From the IMG/VR virus record IMGVR_UViG_3300014839_000001, positions 1 through 61,917 of that record: DNA of 61,917 bases. One strand, written 5' to 3'. Of the stretch, positions 6,713 through 33,670 are shown one piece after another. Every line of letters begins with the position of its first letter. Positions within the stretch are counted from its first letter, which is position 1. The notes under the pieces are model-generated. The model was not told the origin of the DNA, searched no databases, and saw only the letters and a list, made by a program, of their open reading frames with translations. A program made the position numbers and the translations under genes. This DNA is from a virus. Lineage: Duplodnaviria; Caudoviricetes.

Positions 6713-8779
6713 ATGCGAGCGACTGGGCACGACGCACGCACGATTGAAGACGCGATACGCGTTTTGTATTACGGTTCCCGCATGCGCGAGCATGCGCGCG
6801 ACGGATACCCTGAACCGGGAACAAATCAAACGCGGCACGTTCGAGAATATGCCGATGGACGCGTTGACGCACGATTGTCACGCGGCGAGGTTTTCAGCTA
6901 TGGCCCGCATTTCCCGCTGTTTCATTTCATACCCGCTAAAAAACGGCACCCTGCCGTTTTTGTTATCAATGGCGATATATGGCGTGGCCCGCAAAGCCGC
7001 ACAAGTGAACATCAAGCAGACACGCGGCGAATCATCGGACTAACCTTTGCCGCGTCCGTGATTATCCCGTTTTCAGCGCTAGACGGCGCAGGGATCGATT
7101 TAGATTCTATTCGACCGATCGATTCGCGCCCGGACAAGACATGGGCAGAAAAGCATTATGTCAACGCGCCCGATTTTGACGCGTTTGAAACCGCGCTCAA
7201 AATGAAAGAAACCGATGAGCGAAAATCGACCGATTATCGCGGCGAGCCCTGCGCAGAATACGGGACGTGGTCACGTACTTATACCTGGAAAATCGAAGGC
7301 CATACCTTTACTCGTGTTATCAACCGCGCGTGTTACGATTACTCGGACGGCGGTAGCTGGAAATGTTCGGACGATTGGAACAGTCCTGTTTCCGATCATC
7401 GCTATATCAACGGCGGAACAATTGAAAAAGATGCAGACGGCTACTATTTTGAAACGCGGCACCATCGGCTCGGAGATTCGATATTTTCAGCGGTGCGGCA
7501 CGAACGGCTAGCTAGCAGGTTTGCGCAACCGTTTGAATCGAACCGGGACAACGCGCGAGAAACCGTCACGCTGTTTTCATTCGAGGACAGTTATCGCTAC
7601 GATTCAGACGAGGGAAAACCTCATGAAGCAGGCGCGAACGGTTTTTGTATCAATTGCGAGTTACAACTATTTGCTGACGTGACAAAACATCGGCGGGCGC
7701 GATACATATCCTCGTTCGATTCAAACGAGCGGCAACCGCTGTATTTTTTGGCGCAATTACCGCGCGGAAAAATAGAAACCGTCGATGCAGCGATCGACGC
7801 ACTAGCACCGCGCGCCGTTCACGCTGCAATAGCTCGCGAGCGAGAAGTGTTACGGCAGGGTGATATTTTTTACATTCGCACCGATACGGATATGTCCGAG
7901 CTTACCGCGCGAGGATTTATATCCCGCGCACGGCTAACGCAATGGACGCGCGACGCTATCCCGAAACGCGGCGAGGTAGGTTTTCATAAACCGCTCACTG
8001 CAAAACAGCGCCGCGCGATGATGCGCTACGCTCGCAAGCTATACCGCGAACGCCGCGCCGAATTACATACTGCCACGGTTGCAGACTACAATGGTCAGCG
8101 GTTCCCGTTTCAACCGCGCACCGATGCAAACTCCCGCAAACACTGGCGAGACATTCGAAACAGCTACGCGGCCGAATTGACACGCGCGCAAGCCGAATTG
8201 AAAACCGCGCTATGGCGTTTGCCCGCTGCACCATACGGTTACGGCGCTTATCAATCCGGCGCTTATGCGCAAACCGATCATGAAACATTCGAACGCAAAC
8301 AAGCGGCACGCGTGCGGAAATGGAAACGACATATCTACTATGCGCGCCAATCACTAGCACGAGTACAAAAGGACGGTGCGCACGATTCGCTCGGTTTTAG
8401 AAACGCGCGACACGCACGGGACATATATCGAAAACGTGAGGGATTCGCACTAGCGCAATGGCGAGACGCGTTATTGTCCGCACGTTTGAAATTCGAGCCG
8501 TTCGCACTAGCGCATAGCGAATTCAGACAAAACGAGCGCGAGCGAGTGCGCAATGCGTTAGCTATCTACGGCACCGCGCATAGCGCGACTGAAATAGTCC
8601 GCGTGCGCGGCGGTGCTACATACGCGCGCGGGATAGCCCGGCATGTTCCCGATCTTGAGCGCGGGCGCAATGGCGGGCGCGATCATTCTCCGCTAACGTT
8701 AGGGGATGGAGAAACGTTTTATCTAGCGGTGCGCAACACGGTACCGCGTCAGAATCGGCCGCACGTCCGAAACGCGTAA
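6713..8779 (+). CDS. Large hypothetical protein with RQGD motif and C-terminal His cluster
   Basis: 688-aa ORF, AGGGAGGT RBS, LRQGDIF, H..TE, RH, DH..L.L. Confidence 0.8.
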   Translation: MRATGHDARTIEDAIRVLYYGSRMREHARDGYPEPGTNQTRHVREYADGRVDARLSRGEVFSYGPHFPLFHFIPAKKRHPAVFVINGDIWRGPQSRTSEHQADTRRIIGLTFAASVIIPFSALDGAGIDLDSIRPIDSRPDKTWAEKHYVNAPDFDAFETALKMKETDERKSTDYRGEPCAEYGTWSRTYTWKIEGHTFTRVINRACYDYSDGGSWKCSDDWNSPVSDHRYINGGTIEKDADGYYFETRHHRLGDSIFSAVRHERLASRFAQPFESNRDNARETVTLFSFEDSYRYDSDEGKPHEAGANGFCINCELQLFADVTKHRRARYISSFDSNERQPLYFLAQLPRGKIETVDAAIDALAPRAVHAAIAREREVLRQGDIFYIRTDTDMSELTARGFISRARLTQWTRDAIPKRGEVGFHKPLTAKQRRAMMRYARKLYRERRAELHTATVADYNGQRFPFQPRTDANSRKHWRDIRNSYAAELTRAQAELKTALWRLPAAPYGYGAYQSGAYAQTDHETFERKQAARVRKWKRHIYYARQSLARVQKDGAHDSLGFRNARHARDIYRKREGFALAQWRDALLSARLKFEPFALAHSEFRQNERERVRNALAIYGTAHSATEIVRVRGGATYARGIARHVPDLERGRNGGRDHSPLTLGDGETFYLAVRNTVPRQNRPHVRNA

Positions 8780-10124: not shown

Positions 10125-10451
10125 TCAAAACAGATGCCCACAAAAAGGGCATTTCCTTTTGCGGCCAGTAGCCCGCTGCCCTGCCGGGTGCGGCTTATCC
10201 CAAACTTCCAAGTTCTTTTGTCGATTATCGTCCCGCTGCCCATTGACGTGATGCACATTTTCATTTTCACGTAGCGCCCGACCAAGCTTAGCGGTCATTA
10301 CTAACCGATGCTCTACTTCCCAAACTCCCGGTTCGACTTGACAATTCACATAACCGAGTCGCGTAACCGTTCGCGGCATCGCCGCGATCTCCTCCATTGT
10401 CCAGCTACGAGAATACGCAGGCTTGAACTGTCTAGCACTGCTCTGTCCCAT
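10125..10451 (-). CDS. HNH endonuclease
   Basis: EHRLVM...LGR.L...ENVHHVNG.RDDNR..NLEVW; C-terminal CPFC. Confidence 0.88.
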   Translation of the reverse strand: MGQSSARQFKPAYSRSWTMEEIAAMPRTVTRLGYVNCQVEPGVWEVEHRLVMTAKLGRALRENENVHHVNGQRDDNRQKNLEVWDKPHPAGQRATGRKRKCPFCGHLF

Positions 10452-10494
10452 GCCGTTAGAATAGCACACAGGCGTTCTAAGCGGTACTCTAACG

Positions 10495-10521
10495 AAAAGG
10501 CCGGGGAATGTCCCGGCCTTT
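10495..10521 (-). terminator. Intrinsic terminator
   Basis: AAAGGCCGGG-ACATTC-CCCGGCCTTTT. Confidence 0.75.
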
Positions 10522-10627
10522 CTGTTTCTGCGCGTCAGCGTGGCGTTCAGTTAGCTCAGCGTTCGTTTTACCCCTCCTACCGTTACCCCCGGTACCTATT
10601 TCCTCCCTCGTTGAAATCTACCGGCCT

Positions 10628-10656
10628 AGCGTATCACACAAATAAGTGAATTTCAA
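10628..10656 (-). promoter_or_regulatory. Promoter of a ~125-nt ORF-less transcript
   Basis: TTGAAA-N17-TACGCT with extended TG. Confidence 0.55.
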
Positions 10657-10687
10657 CTCTTTTTTTGTGGTATGATCCTGGGGTTTG

Positions 10688-10827
10688 AAATAGAACAGCC
10701 CCCTCTTGCGAAGGGGCTGCTCGTTGCCTGTGCTCACATCGTCGCCACGACGGAGCCGACAGGCGTGCCCGCGCGAGGGAATTGCGCGAGCTACGGCGCG
10801 TCCCGCCGCATGGGACGCATTCCGTAC
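10688..10827 (-). ncRNA. Candidate small RNA (three hairpins plus terminator)
   Basis: Promoter upstream; stems GCGTCCC/GGGACGC, GCTCGCGC/GCGCGGGC, GCCTGT/ACAGGC; terminator GAGCAGCCCCT/GGGGGCTGTTC-TATTT. Confidence 0.65.
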
Positions 10828-10833
10828 CGAGCC

Positions 10834-10862
10834 AGTGTAGCACCGGGCCAAGAAGCTGTCCA
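10834..10862 (-). promoter_or_regulatory. Promoter of the candidate sRNA
   Basis: TGGACA-N17-TACACT with extended TG. Confidence 0.65.
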
Positions 10863-10869
10863 GTTCTCT

Positions 10870-10901
10870 CTGACACTGGCAAAATCGGTGAAAATTTTGG
10901 G
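10870..10901. repeat. 32-bp direct repeat, copy 2
   Basis: Identical to 9757-9788. Confidence 0.9.
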
Positions 10902-10993
10902 GCTCGGTCATCGAAGGTGGTGCCCATCCCAAAAAAACCGTATCATCGTGATCCATAGCCCAAGACCGATTGCCGCAAAAATGTATTGCCACA

Positions 10994-11182
10994 TCAGAGT
11001 TTCCTCGCTTCGGCTGCTCGCACTTGCCGCTTGCTCACTGAAACGACATAGCCCCAAGCGTCACGGATTGTCACTACCCGCGCACCGATAGCGAGAACCA
11101 CGCTCGGGCGAAACGTTGCGTCGTAGGCAACTCGATCGCCCACCTTGATGACTCGGCCGTTTTTCAATTTCATCTGTTTCAT
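10994..11182 (-). CDS. Small basic beta-rich (SH3/KOW-like) protein
   Basis: GGAGGGA RBS; IKVGDRV motif; follows the tmRNA. Confidence 0.55.
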   Translation of the reverse strand: MKQMKLKNGRVIKVGDRVAYDATFRPSVVLAIGARVVTIRDAWGYVVSVSKRQVRAAEARKL

Positions 11183-11207
11183 CGTTCCCTCCTTCGGCGT
11201 TTGAAAT

Positions 11208-11556
11208 TGGAGTAGGGGGGAATCGAACCCCCGTCCGCGAACGCTATTGCCAATCACTTTCCTAACAGCTTTTTTGGGGGCGTGTGTGCCCTCCACCATC
11301 TTGTCTTTCCAAGATGCCAGTTCAGTCTTTCCCGAACCCGCCAGCTCTGTCCGAGCAGGATCAGCGATTGGTGCTGGTTACGCTGAAACCAGGGCCGACT
11401 CGGAGAGGAACGCTTCAATTTCAACGATCCCCCGAGCTGCCTCGTTTGCTACTTCGTCTTTCGCATTCACATTGTCCAATTCAGGACTTGATGCGGTAGG
11501 CCGCAACCCGCTGTAAGTAACTGCCACATTACGCCACGTCGAAACCGATCTACCCC
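11208..11556 (-). ncRNA. ssrA: tmRNA
   Basis: 5' GGGGTAGATCGGTTTCGAC; 3' GACGGGGGTTCGATTCCCCCCTACTCCA; G3.U70 pair; helix 2 pairings (ACAGC/GCTGT, CAGTTACTT/AAGTGATTG); tag frame 11464-11378; CCA not encoded. Confidence 0.93.
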
Positions 11557-11564
11557 GAGTGACA

Positions 11565-11686
11565 ATTGAGAGACGAACCGAGAGGAGTCGAACCTCTCGC
11601 CCGGCGTCAGCCTCGAACCCTCTGAATGGGCGTCCATGGACTCGGCCTTAGCATCCGGCGTCTCAGCCTTGTGCTCGTCTCTCAAT
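11565..11686 (-). ncRNA. tRNA-like RNA of unknown class
   Basis: 14-bp terminal stem stacked on T-arm CGAGAGG-TTCGACT-CCTCTCG; not a canonical cloverleaf. Confidence 0.65.
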
Positions 11687-11701
11687 CTTGCTGCCATCGT
11701 A

Positions 11702-12475
11702 CTACTTGCTCTTCTTCTTGGCAACTGCTTTCTTCGGCTTCGCGGTGCCACGCTTAGCGGCCTTCTTAGCCGCTACGGGCTCGGCCTTGCTCTTGCTGCC
11801 CTTCGGCCGTCCACGCTTCGCAGCGGGCTTGCTGGCCGCTTTCTTCGCCTTGCTGACTGTGTTCTTCCTGTTGGTGCTCGCCTCGTGCTGGCCGGTGCCA
11901 GTAACGAAGTCGAATTTCACGCGGGAGATGTTCCAGCGCAAGAGAGCCTCGGCCTCAGCCTTCGTGTACTTCTTGCCGGTTGTAGGGCTCGTCTTGAAAA
12001 GCTGCTGCGCGTCGGGCTTCAGTAGCTCGAAGCACTTGTCAACGTTGCCCCTGAACTTGCGGACAGCCTTGAGAATGGTCTGCCGGTTGCCCCGCTGTCC
12101 ACCACTCCACTCGGCCTTCCAGTCGATCGATTTGTCATCGATCAGATTACGACCGCTCGGGCCGTCTGCCTTCGGCTTTGTCACCTTGACAGCTTTCTTG
12201 ACGTTCTTGCTTCCAGCCGGTCGTCCGCGCTTCTTGGCAACCTTCTCCGCCTTCGCGGGAGCGCTCTTCTTCGCAGTCTTCTTCGCGGACGACTTCTTGC
12301 TAACTGACTTCGCAGGCGCGGCTGACTTCTTCGCGGCACCCTTCTTCTTGGCAGGAGCCGCCTTCTCGCTCTTGCCGTGGTTCTTGATTGCGTCCTGAAG
12401 CTCGGACGCGCTCATTGCCTTGTAGCCCTCGATGCCAAGCTGCTTCGCCTTGGCCCGGATTTCAAGTGTTCCCAT
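11702..12475 (-). CDS. Histone H1-like Lys/Ala-rich DNA-binding protein
   Basis: Many PAKK/AKK repeats, AT-hook-like KRGRP motifs, N-terminal Rho-N-like segment; GGAGGT RBS. Confidence 0.8.
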   Translation of the reverse strand: MGTLEIRAKAKQLGIEGYKAMSASELQDAIKNHGKSEKAAPAKKKGAAKKSAAPAKSVSKKSSAKKTAKKSAPAKAEKVAKKRGRPAGSKNVKKAVKVTKPKADGPSGRNLIDDKSIDWKAEWSGGQRGNRQTILKAVRKFRGNVDKCFELLKPDAQQLFKTSPTTGKKYTKAEAEALLRWNISRVKFDFVTGTGQHEASTNRKNTVSKAKKAASKPAAKRGRPKGSKSKAEPVAAKKAAKRGTAKPKKAVAKKKSK

Positions 12476-12527
12476 CTTTCAAACCTCCGTCTCGCTTGTC
12501 ATTGTCGAAAACTCACTGTGCCCCGGA

Positions 12528-12556
12528 ATGATACCGCCTTTTCATTCCATTGTCAA
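12528..12556 (-). promoter_or_regulatory. Near-consensus promoter for the H1-like/tRNA-like/tmRNA unit
   Basis: TTGACA-N17-TATCAT. Confidence 0.8.
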
Positions 12557-12921
12557 ACACGAAACTGAAAATGGCATTCGATCGCGGCCGTTGCTGCCTT
12601 CTTGTCGATCTCGGTCACTACGAGCTTGATCTGTTCGACCCGACCGCTATCCAACTCAGGCGCAAGCAGCTCTGCCGAAGCCCTGCGAATGTAACCCATG
12701 TGAATACCTTTGAGCGATGCTGCTTTGTCATCGGCGACCACAACCATGACCGCATTCGGATCAAATTTATTGTCCGGCTCTCGTTCGAGCCTTACGTGAA
12801 ACGGGCATACTCGCATGAGCTTGTCTCTGCCGGTAGCCGTAACGTGATGCTCTAGCCCCACGGCAGTCAATTCGATGTCCCATTTCTTTCCTACCTTCTT
12901 CTGTGCTGTCTTGCGCGCCAT
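12553..12921 (-). CDS. HIRAN-domain protein
   Basis: LEREPDNKFDPNAV.V...HMGYI motif. Confidence 0.85.
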   Translation of the reverse strand: MARKTAQKKVGKKWDIELTAVGLEHHVTATGRDKLMRVCPFHVRLEREPDNKFDPNAVMVVVADDKAASLKGIHMGYIRRASAELLAPELDSGRVEQIKLVVTEIDKKAATAAIECHFQFRV

Positions 12922-13048
12922 TACCGCTTCCCTTCCCGGCACCACGCAATTGTCAAGCAACGCTCGCGCCCGCCGAAGAACGAATAATAAACCATGCGGC
13001 AACCGCAACATAGATGACGATACCGCGCCCTAATTGGAATGAACTTTT

Positions 13049-13330
13049 TCATTGCGCCCTCCTCGGTCTGCCTACTTTCATTGTCTTGAAAATTCCCTCG
13101 ATCTCCTTGACTTGCGCGGGGGAGTATAGCCGAAAACTCAGCTCTCCCAATTGTACTCGTTTCGCTTGTGGAATTCGACCCGCTCTTTCCAACCGCTTGA
13201 TCCACGAAATGTCTTTGCGCACAACACGCGCAAGTTCCCCGATTGTCAAGTAGTCGCTGAACCGCTCGGGCTTGATGTGGCTGGTGCGCGGAGTACGCGA
13301 AGGAAAGTGCGGGCCGATTCGCTTTTTCAC
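13049..13330 (-). CDS. MerR-like HTH DNA-binding protein
   Basis: YLTIGELARVV...IKRLERAGRIP...RLYS. Confidence 0.75.
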   Translation of the reverse strand: MKKRIGPHFPSRTPRTSHIKPERFSDYLTIGELARVVRKDISWIKRLERAGRIPQAKRVQLGELSFRLYSPAQVKEIEGIFKTMKVGRPRRAQ

Positions 13331-23680: not shown

Positions 23681-23870
23681 TCTTTTTTCTCCGTTTCGTC
23701 CATGCGGCGAACCGATTCACTGACTCAACACAACATCTACCAATGTCAGCGCGGACTGAGTAGTTGCAGGCGTCCGTCATCTTTCCGTTCCTGACCGGCG
23801 AAAGGTAAATCTTGGCAACGATTTCAGCAGGCTTCCCGCATACATCGCACGTTCTAAGTCGTGCCATCAT
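23667..23870 (-). CDS. Small Zn-finger protein
   Basis: GAGGAGG RBS; TCDVCG. Confidence 0.55.
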   Translation of the reverse strand: MMARLRTCDVCGKPAEIVAKIYLSPVRNGKMTDACNYSVRADIGRCCVESVNRFAAWTKRRKKNVDN

Positions 23871-25681
23871 GCCTCCTCGATTGAAATTGTCAGTTCTTTG
23901 GTTTTCTCGCCAATGAGCCATTCCAACTCTTCGCGCATGTCGTCATTGTCAATGAGAAGTTTCTTGAACCTTGATTCGGTTCCCGACCACGGCTGCTTCT
24001 CTGAGTCAATGTAAGTGAAGGTGTTTCCGCTGCGCGTGATTGCACCGTCTTGGAGCCCCAAGTTGATGATTTCAACTTCATGATCGATACAGCCGTTCTC
24101 GGTATCAAAGAGAAACATGCCAGCCATTTCCGGTCGAGCTGTCTTTTGCTTTTCAGCTCGCACCATAACCCACTGGCCTACTGGTACGTCCGTAGCGACG
24201 AGCTTTCCCTTCTTGGCAACCTGCTTTGACCGCTTCTCCTTCTTCTCGCGCTTCAGTTCCAACCGAATAGATGCGTAGAATTTCAACGCTCGACCACCAG
24301 GAGTCGTAATGCCGCCATAACCACTGATTTTGTCAATGACTTGATTCGTCCAGATGAAAAGCGTCTCATCATTAACCGTGGTGACTCGACGCAATGCGCG
24401 GCTCATCATCCGGGCTCGACCCGCTGTGCGATCCTCACCTTCCTCCGGGTCTTTGTTCAGTTCTTCGTTCGGCAGAAGCGACGCCACCGAATCAATTGTC
24501 ACAATATCGGCACCTTCCGGGCCAGCGAGAAGCATCAGAAGTTTGATCGTCTCTTCCGCCGTGCTCGGCCGGTGAATCAGCAACTCGTCTATGTCGCCGC
24601 CAAGCTTCTTGAACCACTTGGAATCAAAGATGCCCTCGCTATCGATGAGCGCGCATAGCTCGCCCCGCTGCTGAGCCAACACCATTGTCATGTACGCAAG
24701 AAACGATTTGCCGCTTGAATTGTGAGAGCAAAGGCCATCGGCAAAAAAGGTTTTGGTGCTTGTACCAAAAACGCAAACTTCTTGTTCCCCAACATACCGC
24801 ACTTTTTTCACTGTTGCATAAACGTCTCGACCGTCAGTATACCCGTTCTGCCCATGTGTGGTGAATGCCTTACCAACCCAAAACTTGTTGTCAAACCTTT
24901 TTGGTTTCACTTGACCCAAAAAACGCATGACTTCAGGAACACCACCGCAAACATAAACGCCATGACAGCCAGTACCATTTCCGTTTGCTGACCTGTGATG
25001 AACTTGAAAACCAAGTTTTTTCATTAATTCAAGTGCGTAATCCAACACAACGCCCTCGTTTTGAGAAAAGCCAAACCGGCCGCCACTAAGCCAACCTTCA
25101 CCATCAACTAACCCCGCCAAGTATGTTGCCGCTTCCGCATTTTCAGGCTTGTCCCAGCGATCCCCCAACCAAAGTATTTTGTCACCAACTGAAAGATTGC
25201 GCGACGTTATCCACATCGGCGATTTATATGTTTTGTTCAAGGTCAACCACCCGTGACTTGCGCTAGCCACAGTTTTTGTTCCCTTGTCCGTTGTAATTTC
25301 AAAACACGGCAATACCCGCCGATTGTTGCGCCCCATTGTTGACAATTGAAGTTTACGCTTTTTTCCTCGTCCACCTGGCCCAAATTCGTCAAACCCGACC
25401 AACTCATTACCGCATTTCAGTTCTTCTGCTGGCAACCATTCCAGGTCAGACGTAAGGATCGCCGTATCAGGCGAAACACAGTAATCGCCAAAGATTTCAA
25501 CATGACGACCGCGAGGAAACCCGCCGCCCGTAATTCGTTCTACTGTGAGACTTCCGCACGGCACGCGCTTGACCTCGTATTTGTCATCGCTGGCGAACCC
25601 GAGCACTGGGGCTTTCATTGCCGTGTTGATAGCGCTGGCTAAAGCGGCGGCAGGTGAAGCAGTCCTTCCTTTGCGCGCCAT
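23867..25681 (-). CDS. recA: RecA-like recombinase containing an intein
   Basis: GGFPRGRHVEIFG..|SSGKS, LIDSE, IDSVASL, TPGGRALKFYASIRL. Confidence 0.93.
   Translation of the reverse strand: MARKGRTASPAAALASAINTAMKAPVLGFASDDKYEVKRVPCGSLTVERITGGGFPRGRHVEIFGDYCVSPDTAILTSDLEWLPAEELKCGNELVGFDEFGPGGRGKKRKLQLSTMGRNNRRVLPCFEITTDKGTKTVASASHGWLTLNKTYKSPMWITSRNLSVGDKILWLGDRWDKPENAEAATYLAGLVDGEGWLSGGRFGFSQNEGVVLDYALELMKKLGFQVHHRSANGNGTGCHGVYVCGGVPEVMRFLGQVKPKRFDNKFWVGKAFTTHGQNGYTDGRDVYATVKKVRYVGEQEVCVFGTSTKTFFADGLCSHNSSGKSFLAYMTMVLAQQRGELCALIDSEGIFDSKWFKKLGGDIDELLIHRPSTAEETIKLLMLLAGPEGADIVTIDSVASLLPNEELNKDPEEGEDRTAGRARMMSRALRRVTTVNDETLFIWTNQVIDKISGYGGITTPGGRALKFYASIRLELKREKKEKRSKQVAKKGKLVATDVPVGQWVMVRAEKQKTARPEMAGMFLFDTENGCIDHEVEIINLGLQDGAITRSGNTFTYIDSEKQPWSGTESRFKKLLIDNDDMREELEWLIGEKTKELTISIEEA
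24719..25480 (-). mobile_element. Intein (254 aa) with LAGLIDADG motif in the RecA Walker A loop
   Basis: Y|CVSPDT ... ASASHGW ... YLAGLVDGEG ... FFADGLCSHN|S. Confidence 0.92.
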
Positions 25682-25893
25682 TAAGGGTACGCTACTTTCA
25701 TGAGCACTTCGAACCGAATCGCCTTTCCAACATGCGGGCACCCAACGTGCGTTTCAAAACTCACGCACCCTGCGCCGTCACGCCTTATAAGTGGTTGTTC
25801 ATCTGATTCGATCAAAAGTTGGTCATGAACAGCCTTTGACGCAGCAGAAACCAACCGCTTTGTCAACTGACCCTCTGGTGAATTAGCGTCCAC
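25681..25893 (-). CDS. Hypothetical protein
   Basis: AGGAGGG RBS; TAATG coupling to recA. Confidence 0.5.
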   Translation of the reverse strand: MDANSPEGQLTKRLVSAASKAVHDQLLIESDEQPLIRRDGAGCVSFETHVGCPHVGKAIRFEVLMKVAYP

Positions 25894-30353: not shown

Positions 30354-31667
30354 TTACTTCTTGGTCTTCTTCTTGGCAACCACCGGGAACGCATCAGCGA
30401 GCATGTCGCCATCCTCGTCCTTCGCGGCAGAAATGGTGATCTGCTGCCCTGCCTTGAAATCGTCAAGGTCGAGATCGGCCCAACTGTTGCCGTTATCGTC
30501 TTCGCCGTCATCGAGGAAGTATAGATCGAAGATAACGCCGTCTTCCGTCTCGACATTCAACGTCTGCTCTTCAGAATTGACTTCTACGATCTTGGCTTTT
30601 CCTTCGTAGTTGTCAGGAAGTTCAGAATCGGATTTCTCTTCCTCTTCTGCGGGCTCCTCCTCTTCCTCTTCCTCGGGCTCGCTGTCAGAGCTAGACATTT
30701 CGGTAGCAACAAAATCGCCATCGTCGTCCTTCTCAGCAACGATCGTTACGATTTCGCTCTTACCAAAATCGCCCAAGTCAACATCGTCCGAAGCGAAGAC
30801 AACAAATTCCACGCCTTCGACGCTAACCTTTGCCTTGAGCTTGTCAGAGAAGATTTTGACAATCGTAGCGTCGCCCTCGAACTCAGTATCCTCTTCAGGG
30901 TCAAAACCGCTGGTTGTCTCGTCCTCTTCCTCTTCTTCAACCTCTTCCTCGGGCTCGGCCTTCTTGGTGGTCTTCTTGTCAGCCTTGGTCTTAGCCGCCG
31001 TCTTCTTCTCTTCCTTTTCCTCGACTTCATTTTCATCGGCCTCAAGAGCGCTAGACACTTCCTGCTCTTCGAGGACGCGATTGAGCGTACTGACCAACTG
31101 CTGTTCGTAATCAGGAGAGTTTTTCAACGACGCTTTGATTGCGGTTGGTTTCAAGCTTGCGCTCTTCGGCCGAATTGTGTACCTGCCCCGGTCGTCTTGC
31201 CTCTTGATACGGAACATCTTGCCGAAGACTGTTTCGCCCTCTTTCACGTAGTCAACGAATTCCATGATCGTTGAATAATTGAGGTTAAACGTTTTCAGTT
31301 CGCCCTCTGAAGGGTCATCGTCTTCGTCAGACACAACGAGCCACAACGCTTTTGCACGAGTGTTCGGGTTGTCACCCTCTTCGCAGAGGAAGCAGCCCTC
31401 GCCAGTGCAAGGAACGTAACCCGTTGCTGGTGTGTAGTGCTCCCAGTATTCGTAATAGCCGGGGTTTTCACTTGCTCCCGCCTTCGCCAATGCCTCAGCG
31501 ATACCGGCGTTCTCTTTCTTTTTCAAGTCGTCAGGAGGAAGCGGAATGAACAACGCATAACCGACAAAGCTTTCTCCGGTCTTTTTCAACGTGATGTATC
31601 CGCCTCGGCCAGCGTTTCGGTCGTCAGAACTTTTGACGCCACGAATGGTGGTGGTTTTCTTTGCCAT
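30354..31667 (-). CDS. gp32-like single-stranded DNA-binding protein with acidic duplicated C-terminal domains
   Basis: YWEHY..PC...C.LC Zn motif, IKR..Y; located between primase and HU/DnaE. Confidence 0.6.
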   Translation of the reverse strand: MAKKTTTIRGVKSSDDRNAGRGGYITLKKTGESFVGYALFIPLPPDDLKKKENAGIAEALAKAGASENPGYYEYWEHYTPATGYVPCTGEGCFLCEEGDNPNTRAKALWLVVSDEDDDPSEGELKTFNLNYSTIMEFVDYVKEGETVFGKMFRIKRQDDRGRYTIRPKSASLKPTAIKASLKNSPDYEQQLVSTLNRVLEEQEVSSALEADENEVEEKEEKKTAAKTKADKKTTKKAEPEEEVEEEEEDETTSGFDPEEDTEFEGDATIVKIFSDKLKAKVSVEGVEFVVFASDDVDLGDFGKSEIVTIVAEKDDDGDFVATEMSSSDSEPEEEEEEEPAEEEEKSDSELPDNYEGKAKIVEVNSEEQTLNVETEDGVIFDLYFLDDGEDDNGNSWADLDLDDFKAGQQITISAAKDEDGDMLADAFPVVAKKKTKK

Positions 31668-33670
31668 TATCTGAACTCCTTTTGTAGTGTTCCGGGCAAA
31701 CGGTGTTTGAACATTGTCAACGGCACCGCCTTTTCTATCATGCGCTGAGCCTCTGCCTTTGTCAGTTCCGCCGGGTCTTGACGACCGCTAGGGTAGAGAC
31801 AAATGAAAATGGGATACTTCTTTAGGAGTCTGTCAGCAGAAACGATCGCGTGAAAGCCCGACGCGTCTTTGTCAAACATCAAGTAGACGCGGCGAGGCTT
31901 AAGACGTGAAATTATGCGTGATTGTTTTACTGACAATTTTGAGCCCAGGATTGCTACTGCGTTTCGGACACCGTTTTGGTGAAGGGTCATGCAATCAAGG
32001 CTCCCTTCGCACAGAACAATGCCCTGGCATAGTAGCAAATCCCGGTCGATGTTGCAAGCTCCAAATAGCAGGGAAGACTTCTCACAGCCATCAGGCGCAT
32101 ACAGGTACTTCGGCCAATCCTTCGGCTTCACGGCCCGCTTGATGAGGAAACGCAGTATTCCTTTCTCGTCAAAAGCAGGAATTACAATTCGCCGTTCTTC
32201 TGCATCCCAGCCGATTTGGAATCCTGCAACGCTTTCATTGCCAATGCCTCTCGAACTAAGGTAGTCCATTCCGAACGACGGAAGGAAACGTTGGTACTTG
32301 ATTTCATCTGTAATTGCGCTACCAGAATGTGCGCCTTCGACCAGGGTATTCCGTAAGTTGCGTTTAGACACCGAGCCAGATCGATTGCTAGCGAATCGAA
32401 GGATGAGTTTTCTTGCGTGCCGTTCATCAATACCTTCGATCATTGAAATTGCATGTTCGTATGTACCTGAAATTCCGCAGTTCGCAAAACAGTTTCCTGA
32501 CAAATACCCCGGCCCTGCGACCCAAGTATGCGTAATTGGTTCTTCGCAGCAATACACAACCTCCTTGCGATCAGTTATTTCAACGCTTTCAACGCACACC
32601 GATGAGTGATACCGGGCCAAAGGCATTTCTTTTACGTTTCGGCGATGCGCTTGATGCACAACCAGCTTTTCGTCAATCTTGCCATTGTTGAACAACGACG
32701 CTTTTTGAAATGTCAATTTCCAATTCGGTGCGTATTCGCCAGTCCACGGGTTATCTCTTCGTCCAAGACCAATCGAAGTGCTGTTTAACCCAACATGCGC
32801 CGCTATTAACCTGATTTCAACCAAATTTTCAAAGTTGCTTTGATGAATCATCCAATGTCCTGTTCGCGTCACATGCCCATCAGCAGCAAGAAGACCCGCC
32901 ACAAACCCTCGCAAATAAGAAAGACTGTGTTCATATCTGCTAGGTAGCTTTTTCCAATGCGCAGGCAAATGCGAAACCGAAGTATATTCCAGATTTCCTT
33001 GACCACGCAAGACCCCTTCTGAAATATACTCCCTTTTGAAATACCGCTGAACTAGCTCGCGACTTTCTCCATATTGTCTCATCTTTGTCCACTTGCCATC
33101 CATATACACATGGCCGTCGCCAAAGACCAACCCGTGCCTGACACCCTCCAAATAATCAGCGTCATTTTCATAATCAAATGACAATGCTGTTTGAAATTGC
33201 AGTTGGCGACCTTCAAGAACTTGTGTAGTTACCTTTTCACGCTTTTTGGGTTTCCAATATGGCACGCCAACGAACCGAGATACTTGAGTAGGGGAAACAA
33301 CCCATTCATGCTTGTCAGTCGCATACAGTTCATCACCATTCGACAACGATATGCGCCAAAGTTGTTGAACGCCATATTCTTTCCAAACCGCAGGGTGGTA
33401 CAACCCGTCGGCCGTCAAAACATCTACTTTTTCACCAACTAAACAGTCCGCAGGAAAGAGTCCTCTGCTCGTGCGAACCATAGTTTCGCCGCTAACGCAA
33501 TGGACGAGTGGTTGGTCTAAGTTGACCTGGAAGTGCCGCTTGCCTGTCTCGTGGTTTGGATTCGGGCACTTAACGAGTGGTGAAAAACCCAAACTCGGCG
33601 TATTCGGTGGAAAGTCCACCCAGCGTGACCATAGCTGAACCGGATCGATTTCGCGGCCTTCAAACCGCAT
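31667..33670 (-). CDS. dnaG: DNA primase (CHC2 Zn finger + TOPRIM) containing an intein
   Basis: CPNPNH...H|CFANCG, YL..RGI, KYLY, LCEGSLD, FDKD.SG. Confidence 0.9.
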   Translation of the reverse strand: MRFEGREIDPVQLWSRWVDFPPNTPSLGFSPLVKCPNPNHETGKRHFQVNLDQPLVHCVSGETMVRTSRGLFPADCLVGEKVDVLTADGLYHPAVWKEYGVQQLWRISLSNGDELYATDKHEWVVSPTQVSRFVGVPYWKPKKREKVTTQVLEGRQLQFQTALSFDYENDADYLEGVRHGLVFGDGHVYMDGKWTKMRQYGESRELVQRYFKREYISEGVLRGQGNLEYTSVSHLPAHWKKLPSRYEHSLSYLRGFVAGLLAADGHVTRTGHWMIHQSNFENLVEIRLIAAHVGLNSTSIGLGRRDNPWTGEYAPNWKLTFQKASLFNNGKIDEKLVVHQAHRRNVKEMPLARYHSSVCVESVEITDRKEVVYCCEEPITHTWVAGPGYLSGNCFANCGISGTYEHAISMIEGIDERHARKLILRFASNRSGSVSKRNLRNTLVEGAHSGSAITDEIKYQRFLPSFGMDYLSSRGIGNESVAGFQIGWDAEERRIVIPAFDEKGILRFLIKRAVKPKDWPKYLYAPDGCEKSSLLFGACNIDRDLLLCQGIVLCEGSLDCMTLHQNGVRNAVAILGSKLSVKQSRIISRLKPRRVYLMFDKDASGFHAIVSADRLLKKYPIFICLYPSGRQDPAELTKAEAQRMIEKAVPLTMFKHRLPGTLQKEFR
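32492..33499 (-). mobile_element. Intein (336 aa) with two LAGLIDADG motifs in the primase Zn finger
   Basis: H|CVSGET ... ATDKHEW ... GLVFGDG ... GLLAADG ... VYC...GYLSGN|C. Confidence 0.92.

What the first reader, a model, noticed from the sequence alone, without database searches (positions are those of the whole stretch)
11565..11686. Unclassified tRNA-like RNA 8 nt upstream of the phage tmRNA
Seen: on the minus strand ATTGAGAGACGAGC pairs with GTTCGTCTCTCAAT (14 bp) and stacks on a T-arm (CGAGAGG-TTCGACT-CCTCTCG). A GG-containing unpaired D-loop analogue (ACAAGGCTGAGA) follows the 5' strand. The interior has a GCCC-ATTCAGA-GGGT hairpin (7-nt loop with central UCA), and GACGCC and GGTTCG each occur three times. 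It is not a canonical cloverleaf, and no CCA is encoded. Inference: a tRNA or tmRNA-TLD mimic co-transcribed with ssrA. It could be a decoy for anticodon nucleases or SmpB, or an RNase P/Z processing element that releases the tmRNA. This is my best candidate for an undescribed system here.
Basis: partly seen in the sequence, partly recalled or inferred. Interest (0 to 1): 0.82.

Follow-up and report, generated by a model that had tools for sequence, protein, structure and literature searches.

The report
Odd tRNA-like RNA beside phage tmRNA
A 122-base stretch just upstream of a peat phage's tmRNA gene can fold into a long closing helix capped by a textbook tRNA T-arm. It is not a real tRNA; it probably stands in for the tRNA gene other phages carry at this spot, and no relatives were found to show that it works.

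Summary
They are a 14-bp closing helix, a directly abutting 7-bp T-arm with loop UUCGACU, a weak hairpin with a UCA loop, three GACGCC and three GGTTCG words, and an 8-nt gap to a divergent one-piece tmRNA at 11205-11556 (-).

It is not a canonical tRNA, tRNA-Sec, tmRNA TLD or any Rfam family. The window is a complete phage genome with direct terminal repeats. Element plus tmRNA form a lineage-specific cassette: the two near-complete relatives found carry a terminator hairpin and a small ORF in that slot.

No homologue of the element was found, so covariation could not be tested. The metagenomic DNA contigs that were laid on it are identical to the window.

In other viral contigs, the non-permuted tmRNA genes that have a T-loop just upstream mostly (24 of 27 loci) have it in a canonical tRNA gene. 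Two contigs (L043, L028) carry other non-canonical tRNA-like elements there; L043 also has an extended closing helix.

Best reading (about 0.4): a tRNA-derived, non-decoding module on the tmRNA precursor that serves processing or stability. A decoy function or a decaying pseudo-tRNA remain open. Interest is moderate.

The parts
11673..11686 (-). 5' strand of the 14-bp closing helix (element positions 1-14)
   Evidence: Read. Twelve perfect pairs reported as I1. Pair probabilities 0.6-1.0.
11657..11668 (-). Small hairpin GGC-UGAGAC-GCC (positions 19-30).
   Evidence: Present in all low-energy folds. No covariation data.
11638..11656 (-). Irregular hairpin (positions 31-49): six pairs with a 3-nt bulge and a 4-nt loop
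   Evidence: Prediction only.
11613..11636 (-). Weak 'anticodon-like' arm. Its core is GCCC-AUUCAGA-GGGU at 11631-11617, a 7-nt loop with UCA. Holds the second GACGCC and the first GGTTCG.
   Evidence: Sequence. Pair probability only about 0.14.
11603..11612 (-). Mini hairpin GGC-UGAC-GCC (positions 75-84), in the place of a variable arm. Holds the third GACGCC.
   Evidence: constrained fold. GGCUGA..CGCCGG recurs at positions 19-32.
11579..11599 (-). T-arm: 7-bp stem and 7-nt loop UUCGACU, abutting the closing helix
   Evidence: One of only two such hairpins in the window. Ensemble probability 0.37 against 0.63 for a competing hairpin.
11565..11578 (-). 3' strand of the closing helix (positions 109-122). 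Holds the third GGTTCG.
11557..11564 (-). 8-nt spacer UGUCACUC between the element and tmRNA position 1. It can pair with GAUGGCA at 11698-11692 in a read-through precursor.
   Evidence: Fold of the 501-nt precursor; significance of the extra pairing not tested.
11205..11556 (-). Divergent one-piece tmRNA. Acceptor stem has G3-U70, no CCA is encoded, and the predicted tag is 28 aa (AKDEVANEAARGIVEIEAFLSESALVSA).
   Evidence: Rfam RF00023, 57.6 bits against a 47-bit threshold. ARAGORN misses it. Tag read.
11696..11724 (-). Promoter-like site TTGCCA-17-TACGAT overlapping the stop codon of the upstream gene. It would start transcription about 2-3 nt before the element.
   Evidence: Consensus scan, 9 of 12 matches. 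Not evidence of function.
11702..12475 (-). Upstream gene: a 257-aa lysine-rich protein of unknown family, conserved in the relatives
   Evidence: ORF. No Pfam or PHROG match. Homologues at 45-51% identity in G001 and G002.
10994..11182 (-). Downstream small gene (62 aa). Its ribosome-binding site follows the tmRNA 3' end directly, with no terminator between.
   Evidence: A terminator scan found none between 11205 and 11182.

Best explanation
**What it is.** The element is a real, single-copy, tRNA-derived but non-decoding RNA module. It belongs to a two-part cassette, element plus tmRNA, that this phage lineage acquired.

**Structure.** A very stable 14-bp closing helix stacks end to end on a consensus T-arm. 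Together they would form a 21-bp acceptor/T-type coaxial arm. That arm encloses about 73 nt of weaker hairpins built from short repeated words.

**Position.** It sits where other phages carry an ordinary tRNA gene, a few nucleotides 5' of a one-piece tmRNA gene.

**Proposed mechanism (inferred, not shown).**
- Element and tmRNA are made on one precursor. This precursor is either read through from the upstream gene or started at the promoter-like site that ends at 11696.
- Host RNase P cuts at tmRNA position 1.
- The compact tRNA-like module then acts as a structured 5' leader of pre-tmRNA. After cleavage it acts as a nuclease-resistant 3' cap for the upstream RNA.
- In the relatives, a terminator hairpin sits at this place and could supply such a 3' cap.

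**What is shown and what is inferred.** The sequence anatomy, the uniqueness in the genome, the lineage-specific cassette and the positional analogy are shown. Transcription, cleavage and any effect on stability are inferred.
For: **Anatomy and statistics**
- The helix and T-arm were read directly.
- A closing helix of at least 14 bp arose in 6 of 20,000 shuffles.
- There are only 2 T-arm-like hairpins in the window.
- The closing-helix pair probabilities are 0.6-1.0, and the fold has z = -2.9.
- The element stays an independent domain in the fold of the 501-nt precursor, which has z = -3.9.

**Not a decoding tRNA**
- ARAGORN finds 0 genes at default settings.
- The best Rfam match is tRNA-Sec at 14.0 bits against a threshold of 47.
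- TGA ends 21 of 46 long ORFs.

**Cassette**
- The relatives G001 and G002 (terminase 67% identical) have neither a tmRNA nor the element.
- Between the two conserved flanking genes they carry a terminator-like hairpin and a small ORF instead.

**Positional analogy**
- I classified 140 viral loci that have a T-loop 20-45 nt upstream of a tmRNA 5' motif (classified).
  - 116 are permuted tmRNA genes.
  - Of the other 24, 21 have a canonical tRNA there: 14 with a standard tmRNA called by ARAGORN and 7 without a call.
  - 2 (L028, L043) have a standard tmRNA preceded by a non-canonical tRNA-like element. 1 (L158) is unclear.
- With the corrected pattern, 3 of 31 loci have a canonical tRNA plus a standard tmRNA. 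The other 28 are of the permuted type.
- L043's element has a 12-bp closing helix plus four hairpins, with z = -3.9 and 0 of 200 shuffles as good.
- Closing helices after the T-stem are 3-9 bp in the 21 canonical loci, against 15 bp in L043 and 14 bp here.

**Transcription**
- A promoter-like site ends 10 nt before the element.
- There is no terminator between the tmRNA and the next gene.

**Established knowledge**
- The tmRNA 5' end is made by RNase P (abstract of PMC3985003, seen in the listing).
- RNase P can separate the units of polycistronic tRNA transcripts (title and start of the abstract of PMC2190699, seen in the listing).
Against: - **No homologue was found**, so no covariation supports any of the helices. 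The laid DNA contigs that cover the element (runs X6 and X9) show no difference from the window over it.
- **The fold is ambiguous.** The T-arm has probability 0.37, against 0.63 for a competing hairpin that uses the same 3' strand.
- **A plain hairpin or an ordinary tRNA would serve the proposed role.** The reading therefore does not explain the odd geometry or the repeated words.
- **The continuous helix may hinder cleavage.** In mascRNA, a continuous strong extension of the acceptor stem without a bulge hampers RNase P processing (passages of PMC8457004). A cut inside this uninterrupted 14-bp helix is therefore unlikely. If the spacer is paired as, the cut at tmRNA position 1 might be hindered too.
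- **The promoter match is weak** (9 of 12 positions).
- **No RNA ends are known.**
Confidence: 0.4

Rival explanations
1. **Trans-acting tRNA mimic.** After release from the precursor the module is a stable small RNA. It would bind and titrate a host or defence factor that recognises the tRNA elbow or acceptor/T arm. Candidates are SmpB, EF-Tu, RNase P or Z, the CCA-adding enzyme, tRNA-cleaving defence nucleases, or a synthetase. It would work alongside the phage tmRNA.
For: - The T-loop matches the consensus and stacks on a long helix.
- Helices longer and more perfect than in real tRNAs argue for selection on stability rather than decay.
- Two other phage contigs carry different anticodon-remodelled tRNA-like elements at the same place (L043, L028).
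- There is a published precedent. Mycobacteriophage DS6A carries a TLD-only tmRNA, and a similar molecule strongly inhibits tmRNA, perhaps by titrating SmpB (passages of PMC4131195, and of PMC11915505).
Against: - There are no TLD features. The third pair is U-A, and there is no tmRNA model match confined to the element.
- The phage has no SmpB, Ro/TROVE or CCA-enzyme gene that would point to a partner.
- There is no conservation and no RNA evidence.
- The anticodon-like loop is poorly supported (probability 0.14). That weakens a role as a decoy for anticodon nucleases.
Confidence: 0.15
2. **Decaying or rearranged tRNA gene.** A type II, Sec-like or allo-like tRNA came in with the tmRNA. It has since been scrambled by small internal duplications and has no function of its own. 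The stems would be by-products of duplication.
For: - Short internal direct repeats are present: three GACGCC, three GGTTCG, and GGCUGA..CGCCGG twice.
- The best direct self-alignment scores 19, against 13.2 +/- 2.1 in shuffles; 8 of 300 shuffles reach it.
- The word GAGACG recurs in the 5' strand and in the first repeat.
- Relaxed ARAGORN (-ps80) and the tRNA-Sec model both pick a poor inner cloverleaf at about 11571-11665.
- The cassette is young and has no relatives.
Against: - Decay makes mismatches, not a 14-bp helix with 12 perfect contiguous pairs plus a perfect 7-bp T-stem.
- The inner cloverleaf is 26 kcal/mol worse than the outer-helix fold. It is also 7.6 kcal/mol above the minimum free energy of the inner RNA alone.
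- Tandem Repeats Finder reports no array.
- The element shows no difference from the window in the laid DNA contigs of runs X6 and X9.
Confidence: 0.2
3. **Working but unusual tRNA.** It would be an opal suppressor, tRNA-Sec-like or allo-tRNA-like species with a UCA anticodon, matured from inside the long helix.
For: - A 7-nt loop AUUCAGA with U at position 33 and UCA at positions 34-36.
- A weak tRNA-Sec alignment with a 9/4-type acceptor/T branch.
- Published irregular tRNAs with 8/4 and 9/3 branches, some with UCA, occur in soil Acidobacteria and in phages (abstract and passages of PMC5389517).
Against: - The score is 14.0 bits against a threshold of 47, with E = 9.6.
- The acceptor stem of that fold needs a 2-nt bulge, and the fold is 26 kcal/mol worse than the outer-helix fold.
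- The anticodon stem has only 4 pairs and probability 0.14.
- TGA is the commonest stop codon, ending 21 of 46 long ORFs.
- No CCA is encoded.
Confidence: 0.03
4. **DNA-level or regulatory element rather than a processed RNA.** The inverted repeat and direct repeats would be protein-binding sites that control the tmRNA promoter. Alternatively, the two competing RNA folds would form a riboswitch-like leader. A third possibility is that the features are a recombination scar.
For: - The features lie between a promoter-like site and the tmRNA gene.
- Two mutually exclusive hairpins have comparable probability.
- A riboswitch associated with a phage tmRNA gene has been reported in another phage (passages of PMC9004378).
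Against: - No terminator or U-tract precedes the tmRNA that a switch could act on.
- The repeated words are 26-28 nt apart, which is not in helical phase.
- Neither the 14-mer nor the 12-mer word recurs elsewhere in the genome beyond chance.
- No integrase is present.
- The T-loop consensus is an RNA feature.
Confidence: 0.07

Closest known systems
Canonical tRNA gene immediately upstream of a one-piece tmRNA gene in phage contigs (for example L008/L010 Trp, L017 Gln, L027 Ser, L169/L178 Ile, L186 Lys)
   Same: Same strand. The T-loop lies within 15-45 nt of tmRNA position 1, and a short spacer separates the two genes.
   Different: Those are called by ARAGORN and have a 5-bp T-stem and a 5-9-bp closing helix (3 bp at two loci where my simple helix search failed). 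The window's element has a 7-bp T-stem, a 14-bp helix and no convincing D or anticodon arm, and no detector calls it.
Non-canonical tRNA-like elements upstream of tmRNA in viral contigs L043 (6104-6184) and L028 (6458-6587), both found here
   Same: A T-arm stacked on a closing helix, a small variable-arm hairpin, and a remodelled anticodon region, 9-12 nt before a standard tmRNA. L043 also has an extended closing helix of 12-15 bp.
   Different: No detectable sequence homology beyond the T-loop and the tmRNA tRNA-like domain. The flanking genes are unrelated, except for a distant helicase match in L028. L043 has a tetraloop instead of an anticodon loop. L028 has a normal 7-bp acceptor stem and a 57-nt insertion.
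TLD-only tmRNA of mycobacteriophage DS6A, and artificial TLD-only molecules that inhibit tmRNA
   Same: A phage-encoded RNA related to the tRNA/tmRNA world that lacks a coding function. It is a published precedent for a decoy idea (passages of PMC4131195; passage of PMC11915505).
   Different: The DS6A RNA is recognisably a tmRNA tRNA-like domain. The window's element has no G3-U70 pair, no TLD D-loop consensus and no tmRNA model match confined to it. It also sits beside a full tmRNA.
tRNA-Sec, allo-tRNAs and selC* tRNAs (irregular 8/5, 9/4, 8/4 and 9/3 tRNAs)
   Same: A longer-than-normal acceptor helix, a variable-arm hairpin and a UCA-containing loop. A soil or peat setting, and occurrence in phages, are reported for some of these tRNAs (PMC5389517 abstract and passages).
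   Different: Those keep a 12- or 13-bp acceptor/T branch and function in translation. Here the branch is 21 bp, the model score is 14.0 bits against 47, and the inner 13-bp alternative is energetically poor.
mascRNA and other tRNA-like processing signals with an acceptor stem extended by leader-trailer pairing
   Same: A tRNA-like fold embedded in a longer transcript, whose acceptor helix is lengthened by flanking sequence and which serves RNase P-dependent end formation (passages of PMC8457004). It is the second-best sub-threshold Rfam match (14.3 bits).
   Different: It is eukaryotic. A bulge at the cleavage site is needed there, whereas this helix is uninterrupted. The score is far below the threshold of 42.5 bits.
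Bacterial Y RNA (YrlA), and the small stable RNAs of the phage T4 tRNA cluster
   Same: Non-coding RNAs with tRNA-like modules encoded by bacteria or phages. The T4 RNAs lie within a tRNA gene cluster and have no known function.
   Different: There is no Ro/TROVE gene in this phage and no Y RNA model match. In YrlA the RNA ends sit at the anticodon-stem side, not the acceptor side (recalled). No comparison with the T4 RNAs was made.

Membership tests
Canonical tRNA | Detected as a cloverleaf by ARAGORN at default settings | tested here: not met
   0 genes in the window and in 11100-11900, with or without the intron option. Only at -ps80 does a 'tRNA-??' with mismatches appear at 11572-11665.
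Canonical tRNA | Score at or above the gathering threshold for a model of the Rfam tRNA clan | tested here: not met
   The best clan match on the element is tRNA-Sec at 14.0 bits (threshold 47), E 9.6. Nothing appears at gathering thresholds.
Canonical tRNA | 12-bp acceptor/T branch (7 + 5) | tested here: not met
   14 + 7 = 21 bp.
Canonical tRNA | T-loop consensus (G53, U54, U55, C56, R57, A58, C61) | tested here: met
   GG-UUCGACU-CC at 11599-11579.
Canonical tRNA | Anticodon arm: 5-bp stem and 7-nt loop | tested here: inconclusive
   The stem has 4 bp and the loop 7 nt (AUUCAGA). Ensemble probability is about 0.14.
tRNA-Sec / allo-tRNA / selC* | 13-bp (8/5, 9/4) or 12-bp (8/4, 9/3) acceptor/T branch with a long variable arm | tested here: not met
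   An inner 7-9/4-5 alternative exists only with a UU bulge. It scores -26.3 kcal/mol against -52.5 for the outer-helix fold. The variable hairpin has only 3 bp.
tRNA-Sec / opal suppressor | A need for the phage to read TGA as a sense codon | tested here: not met
   TGA ends 21 of 46 non-overlapping ORFs of at least 150 aa.
tmRNA tRNA-like domain (TLD-only form) | 7-bp acceptor stem with G3-U70, and an ACCA end | tested here: not met
   The third pair is U-A. The only G-U is pair 13. The 3' flank is UGUCACUC.
tmRNA tRNA-like domain (TLD-only form) | Match to a tmRNA covariance model | tested here: not met
   No tmRNA-family match is confined to 11565-11686 at E up to 10. A permuted-tmRNA match of 11.9 bits (E 4.2) spans 11378-11627.
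Bacterial Y RNA / YrlA | Ro (TROVE) gene in the genome and a match to a Y RNA model | tested here: not met
   No TROVE match in the complete phage genome. No Y RNA match.
tRNA-tmRNA tandem unit of phages | tRNA-type T-loop 15-45 nt upstream of tmRNA position 1 on the same strand | tested here: met
   The pattern matches once in the window, at 11538-11593 (-), and in 0 of 100 shuffles.
tRNA-tmRNA tandem unit of phages | One precursor, with both units separated by RNase P | not testable with these tools
   Only one RNA-library contig spans 11482-11707. No RNA ends are available.

The most novel reading that the evidence does not exclude
Some phages that carry their own one-piece tmRNA pair it with a dedicated, anticodon-less tRNA-like RNA. 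This RNA has an over-long acceptor-type helix stacked on a genuine T-arm. It was seen here and, in unrelated sequence, in L043; L028 carries a different non-canonical tRNA-like element with a normal 7-bp acceptor helix.

On this reading the RNA is a trans-acting partner or decoy. It might bind SmpB, EF-Tu, RNase P, a synthetase or a tRNA-targeting defence nuclease. That would let the phage redirect or protect trans-translation during infection. It would be a new class of phage tRNA mimic.
Probability: 0.12. Interest if true: 0.7.

Novelty: new variant of a known kind. Interest (0 to 1): 0.4.

Why it matters
Phage-encoded tmRNAs are rare and their role is unsettled. What travels with them is a clue to how they are expressed and used.

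This case has three parts:
- A very divergent tmRNA.
- A cassette-like acquisition of that tmRNA together with the element.
- A tRNA-shaped but non-decoding neighbour.

Together with L043 and L028, it suggests that the tRNA slot in front of a phage tmRNA can be filled by remodelled tRNA scaffolds.

If these are only processing or stability modules, they are a neat example of tRNA-like signals reused in phage operons. If they act in trans, they would join TLD-only tmRNA and defence-evading phage tRNAs as tools for manipulating the host translation and RNA-cleavage machinery.

For now it is a single orphan sequence without conservation evidence.

Tried and rejected
**Homologue searches that found nothing**
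- blastn of the cassette, and megablast of the first 25 kb, against 50,697 phage records.
- An exact 26-mer of the T-arm region in viral contigs.
- A repeat-word pattern in viral contigs.
- The tmRNA 5' 20-mer in viral contigs. It gave one hit (L007), which is a chance match inside coding sequence: no tmRNA was found there by Rfam or ARAGORN.
- The tmRNA 3' 25-mer in genome contigs: 0 hits.
- The 19-mer T-arm in genome contigs: 13 hits in diverse taxa. Some are tRNA-Arg or tRNA-Asp and some are unclassified. None continues with the element's 3' strand.
- Relatives of the flanking protein in metagenome contigs: 588 pattern hits, 0 confirmed.

**A flaw in my own patterns**
- The window's tmRNA has only 2 nt between GA and GG in its 5' tRNA-like domain.
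- The two-anchor patterns (the metagenome scan) and 77 therefore could not match a tmRNA with this D-loop spacing.
- Their failure to find a homologue says nothing about close relatives of this cassette.
- The corrected pattern was verified on the window and run on viral contigs only (31 loci, none like the element).

**Sequencing runs**
- One RNA-library contig (run X12, record 8) covers 11482-11707. This is not proof of transcription or of a single transcript.
- RNA contigs did not cover the middle of the tmRNA, which means nothing.
- The DNA contigs of runs X6 and X9 that cover the element are identical to the window over it, so they give no natural variation for covariation. Run X11 is identical too, but its contig lies only in the tmRNA.

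**Readings considered and dropped**
- Two-piece tmRNA acceptor piece: the 3' strand is not complementary to the tmRNA 5' end.
- attP or a tRNA 3' fragment: there is no integrase and no matching host tRNA.
- Dispersed repeat or miniature mobile element: the element is single copy.
- Tandem repeat array: Tandem Repeats Finder reports none.
- Protein-coding: only an unsupported 94-aa ORF overlaps it.

**Other**
- The alignment of the window, L043 and L028 cassettes shows no homology beyond the T-loop and the tRNA-like domain.
- Supplementary files of the papers were not consulted. Those of PMC5389517 (irregular tRNA polycistrons) and the online tmRNA database might hold similar elements.
Full report
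**Setting**

The window is a complete viral record of 61,917 bp with direct terminal repeats. Its genes include:
- a gpA-type large terminase, a DnaE-type polymerase, an intein-bearing RecA, a Toprim primase and baseplate J;
- a helicase and an HNH endonuclease near the locus.

Most genes lie on the minus strand, and GC content is about 50%. Near-identical DNA occurs in peat, permafrost and wetland metagenome runs (four runs were laid).

Rfam finds a single RNA gene, a one-piece tmRNA at 11205-11556 (-), scoring 57.6 bits against a threshold of 47. ARAGORN finds no tRNA and misses this tmRNA.

**The observation**

- A 14-bp closing helix of 13 Watson-Crick pairs and one G-U. Twelve contiguous perfect pairs were reported independently.
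- A 7-bp stem with loop UUCGACU that abuts the 3' strand of that helix.
- A GCCC/AUUCAGA/GGGU hairpin.
- Three GACGCC and three GGTTCG words.
- An 8-nt spacer before tmRNA position 1.
- No CCA.

These features exceed chance:
- A closing helix of at least 14 bp starting right after the T-stem arose in 6 of 20,000 shuffles of the upstream 161 nt.
- The window holds only two hairpins with a T-loop-type loop and a stem of at least 5 bp, this one and the tmRNA's.
- Each trio of hexamers is the only such cluster in the window.
- The element folds at -53.7 kcal/mol with z = -2.9.
- In a fold of the 501-nt putative precursor it remains an independent domain. There the 8-nt spacer pairs with GAUGGCA just upstream of the element (significance not tested).

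The interior structure is uncertain:
- The minimum free energy fold replaces the T-arm by a hairpin that pairs 64-69 with 101-106.
- Ensemble probabilities are 0.37 for the T-arm, about 0.5-0.63 for that competitor and 0.14 for the UCA hairpin.
- The tRNA-like fold lies 1.2 kcal/mol above the minimum.
- The competition arises because the words before the T-loop are repeated (AGAGGGUUCGA against AGAGGUUCGA).

**What it is not**

*A canonical tRNA.*
- ARAGORN calls nothing at default settings, with or without introns. Only relaxed thresholds give a mismatched 'tRNA-??' at 11572-11665.
- A permissive Rfam scan gives only tRNA-Sec at 14.0 bits (E 9.6), mascRNA at 14.3 bits (E 6.7), and a permuted-tmRNA match of 11.9 bits that straddles the element and the tmRNA.

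*A tRNA-Sec-like species.*
- The inner Sec-like cloverleaf needs a UU bulge in its acceptor stem.
- It is 26 kcal/mol worse than the outer-helix fold. It is also 7.6 kcal/mol above the minimum free energy of the inner RNA taken alone.

*An opal suppressor.*
- The phage does not need one. TGA ends 21 of 46 non-overlapping long ORFs.

*A tmRNA tRNA-like domain.*
- The third pair is U-A rather than G-U, and no tmRNA model hits it alone.

*A Y RNA or other partnered system.*
- The phage has no Ro/TROVE, SmpB or CCA-adding enzyme gene.

*An attP site.*
- The phage has no integrase.

*A dispersed repeat.*
- The element is single copy.

**Relatives and origin**

Three related viral contigs were found through the terminase, at 67%, 67% and 46% identity. 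None has a tmRNA or anything like the cassette.

In the two near-complete relatives, the 257-aa lysine-rich gene upstream and the small gene downstream are conserved. Between them lie a terminator-like hairpin and a small ORF with a hydrophobic stretch. I read this in the L003 translations and in the L049 DNA; the L049 ORF was not translated with a tool.

Element plus tmRNA are therefore a lineage-specific cassette that replaced that segment. No source was found:
- The tmRNA 3' end has no exact match in one genome per 185,579 species.
- The T-arm 19-mer hits only 13 scattered loci, and none continues like the element.

No homologue of the element was found in phage records, viral contigs or metagenome contigs.

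One caveat matters here. My two-anchor patterns demanded one nucleotide more in the tmRNA D-loop than this tmRNA has. They could not have matched a tmRNA with this D-loop spacing, and that includes one of the two metagenome scans. The corrected pattern (checked) was run on viral contigs only.

The DNA contigs laid from runs X6 and X9 cover the element and show no difference from the window over it; run X11's contig lies only in the tmRNA. Covariation could therefore not be tested.

**What stands at this place in other phages**

I classified 140 viral loci with a T-loop 20-45 nt upstream of a tmRNA 5' motif (classified):

| Class | Loci |
|---|---|
| Permuted two-piece tmRNA genes, where the T-loop belongs to the tmRNA itself | 116 |
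| Canonical tRNA at that spot, standard tmRNA called by ARAGORN | 14 |
| Canonical tRNA at that spot, no tmRNA call | 7 |
| Standard tmRNA preceded by a non-canonical tRNA-like element (L028, L043) | 2 |
| Unclear (L158) | 1 |

Several loci are duplicates of one sequence. With the corrected pattern, 3 of 31 loci have a canonical tRNA plus a standard tmRNA. Another 18 are called permuted, and 10 look permuted by eye.

So a tRNA gene directly 5' of a phage one-piece tmRNA gene is the usual arrangement among the loci these patterns sample. The window's element occupies that place.

The two exceptions:
- **L043 (6104-6184).** It folds into a 12-bp closing helix (15 bp with flanks), a 6-bp hairpin with a GGA loop, a 5-bp stem with a tetraloop where the anticodon arm would be, a 3-bp mini hairpin and a 4-bp T-arm. 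The fold has z = -3.9, and 0 of 200 shuffles are as good.
- **L028 (6458-6587).** It is a type II-like cloverleaf with a 57-nt branched insertion in the anticodon arm. A second irregular tRNA-like sequence lies upstream of it.

In the 21 canonical loci the closing helix after the T-stem is 3-9 bp. The two values of 3 are failures of my simple search. The window (14 bp) and L043 (15 bp) stand out. The three elements share no sequence beyond the T-loop, so they are analogues, not shown homologues.

**How it probably works**

- The tmRNA lies inside a gene row. The next gene's ribosome-binding site follows its 3' end, and no terminator separates them.
- A promoter-like site (TTGCCA-17-TACGAT, 9 of 12 matches) ends 10 nt before the element.
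- One contig from an RNA library covers 11482-11707 without a difference. This is compatible with a precursor that includes the upstream gene's end, the element and the tmRNA. It does not prove transcription or a single transcript.
- tmRNA 5' ends are made by RNase P (abstract of PMC3985003, seen in the listing). RNase P can separate the units of polycistronic tRNA transcripts (title and start of the abstract of PMC2190699, seen in the listing).

I therefore infer that the element is a tRNA-derived structural module of the tmRNA precursor. It would be a folded leader that RNase P releases at 11557/11556. After release it would cap the upstream RNA against 3' exonucleases. In the relatives a terminator hairpin sits at that place.

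I put this at about 0.4. Points against it:
- A plain hairpin or a normal tRNA would do the same job.
- An uninterrupted extension of an acceptor helix is reported to hamper RNase P on a tRNA-like substrate (passages of PMC8457004).
- Nothing here shows function.

**Rivals**

- **Trans-acting mimic or decoy (0.15).** The over-long, perfect helices and the recurrence of remodelled tRNA scaffolds next to phage tmRNAs favour it. So does the published TLD-only tmRNA of phage DS6A, together with the report that a similar molecule inhibits tmRNA, perhaps by titrating SmpB (passages of PMC4131195; PMC11915505). But the element has no tRNA-like-domain features and no partner gene.
- **Scrambled pseudo-tRNA (0.2).** The internal repeats fit it: 8 of 300 shuffles reach the observed self-similarity. 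So does the weak Sec-like alignment. The perfect helices fit it poorly.
- **Working UCA tRNA (0.03).** Disfavoured by the model score, the fold energies and the stop-codon usage.
- **DNA-level or riboswitch-like element (0.07).** Lacks a terminator to act on and lacks recurrence of the motifs.

**Known relatives in concept, and novelty**

The closest known things are:
- the ordinary tRNA-tmRNA tandem in phages;
- irregular tRNAs of soil bacteria and phages, with 8/4 or 9/3 branches, some of them proposed to be regulatory non-coding RNAs (PMC5389517 abstract and passages);
- TLD-only tmRNA;
- tRNA-like processing signals such as mascRNA.

None fits as a family (see the membership rows). Four literature searches listed no paper that describes a tRNA-like element in front of a phage tmRNA. 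I saw listings and selected passages only, and no supplements.

I rate it a new variant of a known kind, of moderate interest. It is a real and odd structure next to an unusual tmRNA, but it is an orphan without conservation or expression evidence.

Noticed in passing
window 11205-11556 (-): The tmRNA itself is unusual. It is missed by ARAGORN and scores only 57.6 bits in Rfam. Its 5' D-loop is 1 nt shorter than the consensus, and no CCA is encoded. The predicted tag is long (28 aa) and ends in LVSA rather than the usual alanine-rich end.
   Followed up: partly
L043 6104-6184 (+); L028 6458-6587 (-) and 6600-6698 (-): Other viral contigs carry non-canonical tRNA-like elements directly upstream of standard tmRNA genes. 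L043 has a 12-15-bp closing helix and a tetraloop in place of the anticodon loop. L028 has type II-like scaffolds with large insertions in the anticodon arm.
   Followed up: partly
window 23867-25741 (-) and 31667-33670 (-): The RecA homologue is 624 aa, with the RecA domain only in residues 340-511 and a weak intein-splicing match. The Toprim primase-like protein has a weak LAGLIDADG match. Both are probably inteins in replication or recombination genes.
   Followed up: no
window 7530-7548 / 7709-7727: A 19-nt inverted repeat (89% complementary, 160 nt apart) lies inside the 688-aa ORF on the plus strand. One arm contains a T-loop-like GTTCGATTC.
   Followed up: no
window 11702-12475 (-); L003 2947-3771; L049 about 1501-2400: The upstream gene encodes a lysine- and alanine-rich protein with a conserved N-terminal LGIEGYKAMS motif and a conserved core (WxISRVKFDFV). 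It has no Pfam or PHROG match and looks like a histone-like nucleic-acid-binding protein.
   Followed up: partly
window 12528-12556 (-): A near-consensus sigma-70-type promoter (TTGACA-17-TATCAT, 11 of 12 matches) lies upstream of the 257-aa gene. Promoter-like sites are enriched in 10500-13200: 4 found against 0.8 expected.
   Followed up: no
viral contigs L009-L047 and L063-L195: Most viral-contig hits with a T-loop just upstream of a tmRNA 5' motif are circularly permuted two-piece tmRNA genes: 116 of 140 loci, and at least 18 of 31 with the corrected pattern. L158 shows a permuted-type 3' piece followed by a further T-loop before the 5' piece.
   Followed up: partly
window 10125-10469 (-): An HNH endonuclease gene lies about 0.7 kb downstream of the cassette. 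It could be linked to local gene turnover.
   Followed up: no
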